From Escherichia coli (GTDB lineage: Bacteria > Pseudomonadota > Gammaproteobacteria > Enterobacterales > Enterobacteriaceae), in NCBI RefSeq assembly GCF_003019035.1, contig NZ_CP027448.1: DNA of 64,000 nt; one strand, given 5' to 3'. Shown here one piece after another: positions 61,701 through 64,000 of the stretch. The stretch's first letter is position 1. Every line of letters begins with the position of its first letter. A program made the position numbers.

Positions 61701-64000
61701 ACACCTCATTTTTCGACAACTGAAAGGAGGTTTTATTAAAAAAAATCAGGTTTTTCTTCTTGTCCAAGAGAATCATACGATTATTGAAAATTTCAACGGG
61801 GTTGACGTTCTGTGATATATAAGTGGAATAACACACTATGAAGCAATAAAATCAAGAATTTTAGTTGCCCGTTAAAAAACTTCAAGCCTGCAAGTAAAAA
61901 TTGCGGCGTTTATTTTAAATTCCAGAGTGTAACGTTTTTTTACCACACATCAAATTCATATATTATACTGTTATCCAGAGATTCTCTCCGGAGAGGAAGC
62001 CATGACAGTTGCGGCTTGTCATGGTCTGAAATTACCGTTATAAAAACGGTTCATATAACTGTCTTTCAGGGAGTTATATGGCCCGTTCAGCTAAACCGCG
62101 CAAACGCAAATCATCCATACAAAGAAGCAAACACCCACGCTATGTTGTAAAACTTCATGGAGATGAGTTTTTTGACGAAGAAGAAGCAGAGGTTCTGCGC
62201 TTTGAGCATTTTGATGATGCCGTGGAGTGCTGCGCAGACCTGAATATTCCGTTCTTTGTAGATGCCGGAAACAAAAAGCTGGTCTTCTGGTTTGTTCGTG
62301 TTGATGACGAAAGTTATCCAGAAATTGCCCGCTGCACGGAGCGGGAGTTTGCGACTATTCTTGCCGGTATCAGCCCGAAAGAATGTCGTGGCTGAAACAG
62401 AAGAAAGACACGGGGAGGGAAACAATCCTTTCACAGTGTTCATTCGCTTTTATATCCATCCAGTTTACTTGTTTTCTCGTGTATGCCACAGGCGCAATAC
62501 ATAGACAGTCTGGCCAGTAAGTTCATAACGGATTTCGTATTCACCTGCCAAAATCCGTCTGACCTTCCCGGGTTCAAAACTGAAATAACTGTTCCTCCAT
62601 GCGTGGATGAGTTAACAAAATGGCCGGAACCTGTATCAGGTGTCAACGCCACGATGTTTGACCGTTACCGTCTTATATCACTGGCGCTGACACAGGAACT
62701 GCACCGTTCTGGTGGTGGCAGGTAATGGTACATGCGCAGTAAGCACTTTTGTTGCTTGTGCTGTATTTTTTTTCATTTTTACATCCGATTAGTTGTTAAT
62801 CATAGTGATTATATTCAGACGAAACAGGGCAAATAATGCGCGTCAGCGCATGTAAGGCGGCATACGGTGGTTACATGTAGCACAGGTGTAAAACCGCCGA
62901 AGCCCGGCGTAAGCCGGTACTGATTGATAGATTTCACCTTACCCATCCCCAGCCCTGCCAGACTATACTCGCTTTCAGCCATGACAGAGCTTCTGTGCGC
63001 GGTCGGAGTGGTCCCGACAAGGGTTTACCCGCAGTCGGGGCGTATCTCCGCGTTAGCGGGCCGTTAGGGCCGCTTACGAGCGTGTACTTCAAATCTTCCA
63101 GCCAGAAGACTGGCAGCGATGATAATGTAGTTACAACATTCATAATTAAAAGCGACTCTGTTCCGGCCCTTTGGGCCGGGGCGGGGCCGCTTTTCAGTTA
63201 TGAGGGGGGGCTTTGTGGTTTCAGTTCTGCGCGGGACCGGGTTTTTTTGGTGGTTGTATCTGAGTGTTGTAACTAAAGTAGCTCCGGTCGGGGCCCGCCG
63301 CTTGCGGTGGGAGGTGCATATCTGTCTGTCCAAAGGACAGGCAATGAATAGGTTTTCTTTTTAAATGAATGTAGTTAAGTAGTTTAAAGGAGATATAAAT
63401 AGGTGTTTAAAAGATACATTGCACCCTGTAAGGCTGGCGGATGGCGCTTTATGACATGAACGGTTGTAACCTTATGAGGAAGTCCCTTGCAGTTAAATGT
63501 GGATAAGCAAAATTCCTCGTCTGTGAGGCGTGTTTTGTATCAAAAACAGGAGGGACCGGATGCACCTGAAGGTGGATGATGAGGTTGTTTTTTGTATGCG
63601 GTGCTGTTTTTTTGTTCGCCGACAGGCTTCAGGCGTGCAGATGCCTCCGGTGCGGGCCAGATTATTCTGAGGAGGTCACTTTCAGGGAGAAGCTGTGGCC
63701 AGCCGGCTGTAATTACGGTTACGTGACAGAATCATGCGCTCTTTCACACGACGCTCCACTTCGCGTTTTACCGCCTCACGATTGGCAGTGAAGCGCCCTT
63801 CCGAGATTTCACGCGTCAGCTGCCGTTTCACCAGGGTGACGATATCCTGACGTTCCCTGTTCGCATCACGACGCGCACGGGCACGCTTTATTCCACGGGA
63901 CTTAAGCTCTGTCTGGTAACTGCGGAAATGCTCACGCACAAAACGCCAGGCTTTCGCTATCAGTTCATCCATACCCAGGGTATCCAGTCCCTGCTTTTTG

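What the first reader, a model, noticed from the sequence alone, without database searches (positions are those of the whole stretch)
62930..63350. GC-rich cluster of hairpins in an otherwise AT-rich intergenic stretch
Several G/C-rich inverted repeats occur within ~400 bp without a convincing ORF (e.g. CCGGCCC-TTT-GGGCCGG at ~63166-63182, GCGGGGCCGC, CCGGTCGGGGCCCGCCGCTTGCGG near 63285-63310). Such clusters can be structured ncRNAs, single-strand initiation or plasmid leading-region elements, or recombination sites.
Basis: seen in the sequence. Interest (0 to 1): 0.3.

Follow-up and report, generated by a model that had tools for sequence, protein, structure and literature searches.

The report
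IncFII plasmid origin-side termination and priming zone
The GC-rich hairpin cluster is the well-known non-coding stretch just beyond the replication origin of an IncFII-type E. coli plasmid, holding two Tus-binding terminator sites and conserved single-strand hairpins between the origin and the place where DNA synthesis starts, so it is real and functional but ordinary.

Summary
No ORF in the interval is conserved.

The interval 62930-63350 lies directly downstream of an IncFII/IncFIC repA (C-terminus 63682-64000, minus strand) and its origin (DnaA box 63498-63506). It corresponds to the 'repA4 region' of R100/NR1 and R1. It holds:
- the only two exact Ter cores (GTTGTAACTA) in the 64-kb window, inverted into a small fork trap (TerB 63124-63146 minus strand, TerA 63257-63279 plus strand);
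- a 28-pair hairpin (63140-63203) abutting TerB;
- an 8-bp hairpin (63294-63311) at the origin border;
- a five-helix element of about 93 nt (62995-63087).

A G4-like primase start candidate (hairpins 62836-62917, then TACTG 62918-62922) lies just outside the interval, 398 nt from the origin end.

All these structures covary across 25 or so Enterobacterales replicons and IncI1 R64. Three keep G·T pairs, so they fold better on the + strand, the predicted leading-strand template.

The repA4 ORF is broken in the window and in most relatives. No Rfam family matches.

Verdict: already known biology, low interest. One new detail is that the hairpin next to TerB pairs the cytosine that Tus uses for its lock.

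The parts
63682..64000 (-). C-terminal third of the IncFII-family initiator gene repA. The gene runs off the window end; its stop codon is at 63682-63684.
   Evidence: The ORF 63682..63972 is listed. It matches TIGR03474 incFII_RepA at profile positions 182-275 of 275, E 2.8e-49. Relatives annotate repA here.
63319..63506 (-). Equivalent of the minimal origin oriR. It has a DnaA box TTATCCACA at 63498-63506 and an AT-rich stretch at about 63355-63420.
   Evidence: The DnaA box is found. GC drops to 0.40 at 63300-63499. The stretch is collinear with R100 ori. The 188-bp size of oriR is taken from PMC5883639. The limits given here are inferred from that size.
63294..63311 (+). Hairpin CCCGCCGC-TT-GCGGTGGG on the permissive side of TerA, at the origin border.
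   Evidence: Alignment A5: 98.5% of cells paired against 34-65% when the partner is slid. Two pairs show compensatory changes. A G·T pair is kept in 15 of 19 sequences.
63257..63279 (+). TerA, TATCTGAGTGTTGTAACTAAAGT, a Tus-binding terminator. G6 is at 63262 and its non-permissive face points to lower coordinates, so it blocks forks moving towards oriR and repA.
   Evidence: The exact core is at 63266-63275. It is invariant in 27 aligned replicons. The polarity follows from established Tus-Ter knowledge (inference).
63140..63203 (+). Long imperfect hairpin of 28 pairs, apex CCGGCCC-TTT-GGGCCGG. Its outer stem (63140-63146 with 63197-63203) overlaps Ter positions 1-7 of TerB and pairs C63141, the 'C6' of TerB, with G63202.
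   Evidence: Fold z -5.3. Alignment A3: 93.3% paired against 41-55% slid, 9 pairs with compensatory changes, and T·G kept at five or six positions. The + strand is more stable in 26 of 26 homologs.
63124..63146 (-). TerB, ATTATGAATGTTGTAACTACATT on the minus strand. G6 is at 63141 and its non-permissive face points to higher coordinates (towards oriR), so it blocks forks arriving from the repA/oriR side.
   Evidence: The exact core is at 63128-63137. It is invariant in the alignments. It is the only Ter present in IncI1 R64, in the same orientation.
62995..63087 (+). Element b, a five-helix single-strand fold with nearly invariant flanks (CGGAGTGGTC ... GGCGTATCTCCGCGTTAGCG ... CGCTTACGAGCGTGT) and a variable, covarying internal hairpin. 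Its role is not assigned; it may be an accessory or second priming signal.
   Evidence: Alignment A2: 33 pairs, 93.7% paired against 32-52% slid, 12 pairs with compensatory changes, 0 of 500 shuffles as high, and conserved G·T pairs. The + strand is more stable in 25 of 25 homologs.
62836..62922 (+). It comprises hairpin III (62836-62851), stem II (62858-62897), mini-hairpin I CCGGC-GTAA-GCCGG (62904-62917), then TACTG (62918-62922).
   Evidence: Fold z -3.0. Hairpin III and stem II covary. Hairpin I shows CCGGC/GCCGG alternating with GCGGC/GCCGC by eye. G4 has GGCGAAAGCC...CTACTG at its annotated primer start. The motif is 398 nt from the oriR end. Homology with most IncFII plasmids and with R64 ends at 62839. 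The assignment is inferred.
63221..63319 (-). Remnant of the 'repA4' ORF. It starts at the same ATG as R100 repA4 but runs only 32 codons here, against 128 in R100.
   Evidence: The ORF is broken in nearly all homologs and the region lengths fall in all three classes modulo 3. No protein family matches. PGAP does not call a gene here in relatives.

Best explanation
The interval is the cis-acting zone between the origin (oriR) of an IncFII/IncFIC replicon and the start site of leading-strand synthesis. In R100/NR1 and R1 this stretch is called the 'repA4 region'.

Shown here:
- It lies directly downstream of repA and a DnaA box.
- It contains two inverted Ter sites whose non-permissive faces point at each other, forming a fork trap with an interior of about 110 bp.
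- Its hairpins are conserved by compensatory changes in distantly related Enterobacterales replicons and in IncI1 R64.
- Three of the structures are specific to the + strand.
- No ORF in it is conserved.

Inferred from published work on R1 and R100, part of it recalled from memory:
1. RepA and DnaA open oriR, and DnaB unwinds towards lower coordinates.
2. The + strand is exposed as single-stranded DNA. Primase starts the leading strand about 400 nt downstream, at a G4-type signal (here hairpins 62836-62917 followed by TACTG at 62918-62922). Synthesis proceeds away from oriR.
3. TerA stops any fork running back towards oriR, which makes replication unidirectional.
4. After one round the fork returns through repA and oriR. 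It is stopped at Tus-TerB just before it would displace the 5' end of the new leading strand. This prevents over-replication, rolling-circle forms and multimers.

The GC-rich hairpins are folds of the + strand that stays single-stranded during this window. Their exact roles (primase or primosome signals, exclusion of SSB, interplay with Tus) are not established.
For: Context:
- The RepA C-terminus matches TIGR03474 and the DnaA box is at 63498-63506.
- More than 5000 IncF-type plasmid records match at 89-97% identity.
- The stretch is collinear with R100, where repA4 spans exactly the equivalent of 63319 to 62931.

Ter sites:
- The exact core occurs only twice in 64 kb, 128 bp apart and inverted. 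It is invariant in the alignments.

Literature:
- Two ter sites lie between oriR and the leading-strand start in R1 and enforce unidirectional replication. Loss of Tus or ter gives rolling circles, multimers and instability (PMC10331603; PMC4999828).
- The repA4 region contains the ter sites, is needed for stability, and is required in a transposon-insertion screen (PMC4398462).

Structure:
- The + strand is more stable in 25 of 25 homologs for element b and 26 of 26 for hairpin c.

Not coding.

The same module lies downstream of the IncI1 R64 ori.
Against: - There is no experimental data for this plasmid.
- The primary papers (Masai & Arai 1989; Bernander 1992; Jiang 1993; Tanaka 1994; Krabbe 1997) could not be read. 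The '400 bp downstream G site' and the direction of replication rest on reviews and on my memory.
- The exact leading-strand start is not settled between element a and element b. The CTG after hairpin I is present in the E. coli-type sequences, R100 and R64 but in only about half of the distant homologs.
- Similarity to the phage G4 and alpha3 complementary-strand origins is not statistically significant.
- A helicase leaving oriR meets TerB at its non-permissive face before it reaches the start site. The simple model does not explain this.
- A role as + strand RNA cannot be excluded by sequence alone.
Confidence: 0.85

Rival explanations
1. A structured non-coding RNA is transcribed from the + strand (antisense to the repA direction). 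It would cover element b and end at hairpin c acting as an intrinsic terminator (GC stem followed by UUUU).
For: G·U-compatible, + strand-specific covariation fits RNA as well as single-stranded DNA. Hairpin c is flanked by AAAA and TTTT, like a bidirectional terminator.
Against: No Rfam family matches up to E = 10. No conserved promoter lies upstream: the only + strand promoter-like sites are at 62778-62806, outside the conserved module, and at 63119-63146, and the TATACT at 62964-62969 is not conserved. The terminator scan does not call hairpin c. The covarying outer stem reaches beyond the A and T tracts into the Ter flank, which a terminator does not need. The region is documented to act in cis in replication.
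Confidence: 0.06
2. The interval is the (decaying) protein-coding gene repA4, and its conservation reflects a protein.
For: R100 has an intact 128-codon ORF from the same ATG. It is annotated as RepA4 in several published plasmids. One close relative keeps 130 stop-free codons (L007).
Against: The ORF is cut to 32 codons in the window. It is broken in nearly all homologs, including some 91-93% identical, and indels are not multiples of three. No Pfam or NCBIfam family matches. PGAP calls no gene here. The variation follows base pairing, not codons.
Confidence: 0.04
3. The interval is a conjugative leading-region single-strand promoter or priming element (Frpo/ssi type) used on the transferred strand in the recipient.
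For: It is a cluster of stable single-strand hairpins on an IncF plasmid.
Against: It sits between repA/oriR and unrelated cargo, not beside oriT, ssb or psiB. In R100 those genes are about 40 kb away from the replicon. No -35/-10 pair forms within a hairpin. The module also occurs in non-conjugative replicons such as Yersinia pCD1.
Confidence: 0.01
4. The interval is a site-specific recombination or multimer-resolution site (cer/dif-like), or a cruciform recombination hotspot.
For: It holds inverted repeats, and mutants of the region show multimers and instability in the literature.
Against: The published multimer phenotype is attributed to loss of Tus-ter arrest. The invariant 10-mers are Ter cores. 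I saw no Xer-type half-sites with a 6-8 bp spacer when reading the sequence, but I ran no formal scan.
Confidence: 0.02

Closest known systems
oriR - ter - G-site region ('repA4 region') of IncFII plasmids R1 and R100/NR1
   Same: The order repA, DnaA box/oriR, two inverted Ter sites, leading-strand start is the same. The stretch is collinear with R100 over the whole interval and about 90-97% identical to thousands of IncF plasmids.
   Different: This copy is a variant typed IncFIC. The best database identity is 96.6% and the repA4 ORF is truncated to 32 codons. No functional difference is evident.
ori-proximal region of IncI1 plasmids (R64/ColIb-P9)
   Same: R64 carries TerB, hairpin c, element b and the G-site candidate in the same order and orientation downstream of its DnaA box, at high identity (rows 'R64').
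   Different: R64 has only one Ter, the TerB equivalent, and no TerA. The origin-proximal part and the initiator (RepZ) differ.
Complementary-strand origins of phages G4, alpha3 and St-1 (G4-type primase-dependent priming signals)
   Same: Both are several stable hairpins on one strand. Both have a GCG(N2-3)AGC-type mini-hairpin (G4 GGCGAAAGCC, alpha3 GGCGTTAGCC, window GGCGTAAGCC) followed by (C)TACTG where the G4 primer starts (PMC13037366).
   Different: There is no significant overall sequence similarity. The spacing from hairpin to start is shorter. The CTG is not conserved in distant plasmid homologs. Activity has not been tested.
Tus-Ter replication fork trap of the E. coli chromosome and the ter sites of R6K
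   Same: The 10-bp core and G6 are identical, and the two inverted sites have their non-permissive faces pointing inwards.
   Different: The trap interior is only about 110 bp and sits next to the origin, where it serves unidirectional replication. A conserved hairpin overlaps the non-permissive flank of one site.

Membership tests
Tus-binding Ter site | Conserved core GTTGTAACTA (Ter positions 10-19) | tested here: met
   There are two exact matches, 63128-63137 (-) and 63266-63275 (+), and no other exact match in the 64-kb window. The core is invariant in 27 replicons.
Tus-binding Ter site | G·C pair at position 6, four bases before the core | tested here: met
   TerA is TATCTG(6)AGTGTTG..., with G at 63262. 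TerB is ATTATG(6)AATGTTG... on the minus strand, with G opposite C63141. The Ter consensus used for numbering is recalled from memory.
Tus-binding Ter site | Binding of Tus and polar fork arrest | not testable with these tools
   This is known for R1 and R100 from the literature only.
IncFII-family basic replicon (RepFIIA/RepFIC) | IncFII-type RepA initiator | tested here: met
   TIGR03474 matches at E 2.8e-49 over the part of the gene inside the window. The score is below the full-length cut-off only because the gene is cut by the window end.
IncFII-family basic replicon (RepFIIA/RepFIC) | DnaA box and AT-rich origin about 170 bp downstream of repA | tested here: met
   TTATCCACA lies at 63498-63506, 176 bp from the repA stop. 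The AT-rich stretch is seen.
IncFII-family basic replicon (RepFIIA/RepFIC) | copA antisense RNA, tap leader and copB upstream of repA | not testable with these tools
   These lie beyond the window end. They are present in the closest relative.
G4-type primase-dependent priming signal (G site) | Several stable hairpins on the template strand | tested here: met
   62835-62930 folds with z -3.0. Hairpin III and stem II covary.
G4-type primase-dependent priming signal (G site) | 5'-CTG-3' start triplet just 3' of hairpin I on the template | tested here: inconclusive
   TACTG at 62918-62922 is present in the window, R100, R64 and the E. coli-type copies. It is absent in about half of the distant homologs.
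G4-type primase-dependent priming signal (G site) | Sequence relatedness to the phage complementary-strand origins | tested here: not met
   blastn finds nothing. Smith-Waterman scores fall within the shuffled range. As I recall, the literature also describes only limited homology near the start.
G4-type primase-dependent priming signal (G site) | Primase-alone priming on SSB-coated single strand | not testable with these tools
   An M13 ori-deletion plaque assay or in vitro priming is needed.
Any Rfam RNA family | Covariance-model match | tested here: not met
   There is no match in 62900-63400 up to E = 10.
repA4 as a protein-coding gene | Reading frame kept among relatives | tested here: not met
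   The frame is intact only in R100-like copies and broken in the window and most homologs.
Leading-region Frpo/ssi element | Location in the oriT-proximal leading region, with -35/-10 formed inside a hairpin | tested here: not met
   The element is adjacent to repA and oriR. No such promoter is found.

The most novel reading that the evidence does not exclude
The conserved + strand hairpin next to TerB (63140-63203) may be an anti-lock device.

Its outer stem pairs Ter positions 1-7, including the cytosine (C63141) that Tus captures to lock a fork approaching from the non-permissive side.

At initiation, DnaB unwinds from oriR without a following polymerase. The + strand behind it is therefore free, and the hairpin can zip up and take C6 before Tus does. 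That would let the helicase pass TerB and expose the priming site.

At the end of the round a complete replisome copies the + strand at once. The hairpin cannot form, and the Tus lock holds.

This would explain how replication that starts beyond a non-permissive Ter can begin at all in IncFII and IncI1 plasmids.
Probability: 0.12. Interest if true: 0.6.

Novelty: already known. Interest (0 to 1): 0.22.

Why it matters
For annotation, this stretch should be labelled as part of the IncFII replicon: Ter sites, the priming zone, and a non-coding 'repA4'. It should not be flagged as an unknown RNA or a mobile element. Current automatic annotation leaves it blank.

The comparative result adds modestly to a system mapped mostly in 1983-1997. 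Four separate structures in this zone covary across genera, and three of them are kept specifically on the predicted leading-strand template.

If the hairpin-Ter overlap proved functional, it would bear on a long-standing oddity: the R1 leading strand starts beyond a Ter site that faces the origin. It would also bear on how the Tus lock can be modulated.

Tried and rejected
- Rfam E-value search of 60000-64000 found nothing in the interval.
- blastn of 62880-63360 against 50,697 phage records gave only chance 23-48 nt matches.
- Smith-Waterman against the G4 and alpha3 complementary-strand origin regions gave scores inside the shuffled range. One gappy G4 alignment to 63210-63324 (minus strand) scored 34 against a null maximum of 36, and I rejected it.
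- I first considered the minus strand of element b as the G site, because it carries GGAGATAC and CCCGACTGC, both resembling G4. I dropped this because the covarying G·T pairs and the fold energies place the structure on the + strand, and because the CTG is not conserved there.
- I considered element b as a PriA-type assembly site, because AAGCGG lies on the minus strand. This remains unresolved and rests only on a recalled hexamer.
- GCGTTAGC at window position 122 lies inside a repetitive coding sequence and is a chance match.
- The primary papers could not be retrieved, and two literature searches were unproductive.
- My first TerB coordinates (63119-63141) were off by 5. They are corrected to 63124-63146 from the core position.
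- The promoter and terminator scan gave nothing above the shuffled expectation.
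Full report
**1. The observation**

- CCGGCCC-TTT-GGGCCGG at 63163-63179;
- GCGGGGCCGC at 63181-63190;
- CCGGTCGGGGCCCGCCGCTTGCGG at 63284-63307.

The first two belong to one long imperfect palindrome with 22-nt arms.

Folded as single-stranded DNA, the region is more stable than dinucleotide shuffles:

| Stretch | z (+ strand) | z (- strand) |
|---|---|---|
| 63140-63205 | -5.3 | -4.5 |
| 62985-63100 | -3.7 | -1.9 |
| 62835-63320 | -4.6 | -3.1 |
| 63280-63350 | -1.4 (not significant) | -1.0 |

GC content is 0.53-0.58 inside the interval and lower on both sides. The mechanical ORFs of 69-93 aa have no family match.

**2. Where the interval sits**

- The ORF at 63682..63972 (minus strand), which runs off the window, is the C-terminus of an IncFII-family RepA (TIGR03474, E 2.8e-49).
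- A perfect DnaA box, TTATCCACA, lies 176 bp downstream of its stop codon, at 63498-63506. An AT-rich stretch follows. This is the layout of oriR in R1 and R100.
Almost all hits are Escherichia, Klebsiella, Shigella or Salmonella IncF plasmids at 90-97% identity.
- The closest relative is p3RM8082, typed IncFIC. It has no annotated feature between a hypothetical gene and repA.
- In R100 the stretch is collinear. A published annotation of pEntH10407 agrees.

**3. Ter sites**

The Ter core GTTGTAACTA occurs exactly twice in the 64-kb window. The copies are at 63128-63137 (minus strand) and 63266-63275 (plus strand), 128 bp apart and inverted.

Extended to 23 nt, both have G at position 6:
- TerA: TATCTGAGTGTTGTAACTAAAGT, 63257-63279, plus strand.
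- TerB: ATTATGAATGTTGTAACTACATT, 63146 to 63124, minus strand.

By the established polarity of Tus-Ter, the G6/C6 end is the non-permissive face. The two blocking faces therefore point at each other. TerB stops forks coming from oriR, and TerA stops forks moving towards oriR.

This matches reviews of R1. Two ter sites lie between the minimal origin and the leading-strand start. One blocks the wrong-direction fork almost at once, and the other stops the productive fork after a full round. Without Tus or ter the plasmid over-replicates, forms multimers and rolling circles, and becomes unstable (PMC10331603; PMC4999828). Phan et al. state that the repA4 region contains the ter sites and is important for stability, and they found it required in a transposon-insertion screen (PMC4398462).

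**4. Relatives from elsewhere**

A scan of one genome per species for the inverted Ter-core pair returned 37 loci.

- 28 of them align to the window at 69-93% identity. They come from Pantoea, Buttiauxella, Izhakiella, Kosakonia, Citrobacter, Yersinia pestis, Rahnella, Erwinia, Ewingella, Mixta, Klebsiella and Enterobacter. A few are obviously contaminating contigs in unrelated MAGs.
- The set is biased towards replicons that keep both Ter sites.
- IncI1 plasmid R64, fetched independently, carries the same module downstream of its own DnaA box. It has only the TerB-equivalent site, in the same orientation.

**5. What is conserved**

In the 27-sequence alignment conservation is blocky. The blocks are structures.

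- **Hairpin e, 63294-63311, next to TerA.** 98.5% of cells are paired. Two pairs show compensatory changes. A G·T pair is kept in 15 of 19 sequences.
- **Hairpin c, 63140-63203.** It has 28 pairs, 93.3% paired against 41-55% when the partner is slid. Nine pairs show changes on both sides, for example CCGGCCC/GGGCCGG alternating with CCGGGCC/GGCCCGG, and AAAGCG/CGCTTT with AAAGCC/GGCTTT. T·G is kept at five or six positions.
- **Element b, 62995-63087.** It has five helices and 33 pairs, 93.7% paired against 32-52% slid. Twelve pairs show changes on both sides and 0 of 500 shuffles reach this. The flanks are nearly invariant. The internal hairpin varies in length, and in its short versions it ends in GCGAAGC-type loops.
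- **Element a, 62836-62922, just left of the interval.** Its first hairpin and a long-range stem covary. Its last hairpin switches between CCGGC/GCCGG and GCGGC/GCCGC.

The G·T pairs become A·C mismatches on the other strand. Folding every homolog on both strands therefore tests strand specificity:
- element b: + strand more stable in 25 of 25;
- hairpin c: + strand more stable in 26 of 26;
- element a: no bias, 12 of 24.

**6. Not a gene**

The 128-codon repA4 frame of R100 is cut to 32 codons in the window. It is broken in nearly all homologs, including several that are 91-93% identical, and region lengths fall in all three classes modulo 3. Neither Pfam nor NCBIfam knows the protein, and PGAP does not call it. 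Conservation follows base pairing, not codons.

**7. The priming site**

As I recall Masai & Arai (1989) and Bernander et al. (1992; cited), the leading strand of R1 is primed by primase alone at a G4-type 'G site' about 400 bp downstream of oriR. I could not read these papers.

The evidence for placing it at element a is as follows:
- If replication moves away from repA, the template of the leading strand is the window's + strand.
- On that strand the mini-hairpin CCGGC-GTAA-GCCGG (62904-62917) is followed by TACTG (62918-62922).
- Phage G4 has GGCGAAAGCC in hairpin I, followed by CTACTG, where its annotated primer begins. Phage alpha3 has GGCGTTAGCC. These GCG(N)AGC mini-hairpins are discussed in PMC13037366.
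- T62921 is 398 nt from the repA4 ATG, which is the origin-distal end of the 188-bp oriR equivalent.
- Homology with most IncFII plasmids and with R64 ends at 62839, right after the outermost hairpin.

I take this as the most likely start, at about 0.6 confidence. There are three caveats. The CTG is missing in about half of the distant homologs. Overall similarity to the phage origins is not significant. Element b, which is the more strand-specific fold, could be part of the signal or a second one.

**8. Mechanism**

Shown here: the anatomy, the conservation, the strand bias and the absence of coding.

Inferred from the literature:
1. RepA and DnaA open oriR, and DnaB unwinds towards lower coordinates.
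2. The + strand becomes single-stranded and folds.
3. Primase starts the leading strand near 62921 and synthesis moves away from oriR.
4. TerA stops back-running forks.
5. The returning fork is stopped at Tus-TerB about 200 nt before the 5' end of the new strand.

One problem remains open. The unwinding helicase meets TerB at its blocking face before it reaches the start site.

**9. A detail that may be new**

The outer stem of hairpin c (63140-63146 with 63197-63203) is made of Ter positions 1-7 of TerB.
- It pairs C63141, the 'C6' that Tus captures to lock, with G63202. This pair is C-G in 25 of 26 sequences.
- It covaries in at least three forms: TCATAAT/GTTATGA, CCATCAT/GTGGTGG and CCGGTAT/GTGCCGG.

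A + strand hairpin could therefore compete with Tus for C6 when the helicase runs without a following polymerase, as at initiation. It could not do so when a full replisome copies the strand at once, as at termination. This is speculation. I found no mention of it in the reviews I could read.

**10. Rivals**

- **A + strand RNA ending at hairpin c** fits the G·U-compatible covariation. It lacks a conserved promoter, an Rfam match and a terminator call.
- **A protein-coding repA4** is contradicted.
- **A leading-region Frpo/ssi element** is excluded by location.
- **A recombination site** has no support, and the published multimer phenotype is explained by loss of Tus-ter arrest.

**11. Verdict**

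This is a real, strongly constrained, cis-acting part of a very common plasmid replicon, described in outline decades ago. Novelty is 'already known' and interest is low. The comparative structural evidence and the hairpin-Ter overlap are modest additions.

Noticed in passing
L040 (R64, NC_005014) 1945-2335: IncI1 plasmid R64 carries nearly the same TerB, hairpin, element b and G-site module as IncFII plasmids downstream of its own origin. It has only one Ter site. The rest of the origin and the initiator differ, which suggests that the module is exchanged between replicon families.
   Followed up: partly
L003, L005, L007, L012, L016, L034: Contigs filed under Clostridiales, Lachnospiraceae, Collinsella and Sporosarcina MAGs, a Streptomyces morookaense assembly and a Chryseobacterium isolate carry E. 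coli-type IncF replicon DNA at 89-93% identity to the window. L034 is the exception: it matches at about 73% and is essentially identical to the Citrobacter plasmid locus L021 from the same project. These are almost certainly contamination or mis-binning.
   Followed up: no
window 60696-61836 (-): The PsaF/MyfF-family fimbrial regulator is one 333-aa gene in the closest plasmid, p3RM8082. In the window it is split into ORFs of 218 and 179 aa (97% identical pieces overlapping at about 61180-61235). This looks like a frameshift pseudogene or a sequencing error.
   Followed up: yes
L004 10469-11398, L038 5742-6648, L015 1074-1785 (alignment A1 columns 1-300 and 400-520): In Pantoea stewartii and Klebsiella ATCC 13883 an extra 100-200 nt GC-rich, hairpin-forming insert (…GCCCTTTTAACCCCG…GCGGCGTAGCCGC…) separates the G-site candidate from element b. 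A related sequence replaces element b in Kosakonia. It may be a small repetitive or mobile element.
   Followed up: no
window 62078-62395 (+) and 62483-62725 (+): Two small ORFs (105 and 80 aa) lie left of the replicon module and have no credible Pfam or NCBIfam match (one weak sub-threshold Pfam hit for the first). The first is annotated as hypothetical in p3RM8082. The second is not annotated there.
   Followed up: partly
window 63204-63256 (+): The stretch between hairpin c and TerA is G-rich then T-rich on the + strand (GGGGGGG…TTTTTTT here; GGTGGGGAGGGGCTGTGAGGG in distant relatives). It is conserved in character rather than in sequence, and its role is unknown.
   Followed up: no
window 1-420: The window opens inside a coding repeat with a period of about 360 bp: positions 1-40 recur at 361-400 with a few changes. 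It looks like a repetitive adhesin or autotransporter-type gene.
   Followed up: no
window 52000-60320: An F4 (K88)-like fae fimbrial operon, followed by a PAPS-reductase-like gene and a ParB-N-terminal-domain gene, is 99% identical to cattle E. coli plasmid p3RM8082. The shared segment lies in the opposite orientation relative to the replicon, so the plasmid is a rearranged mosaic.
   Followed up: no
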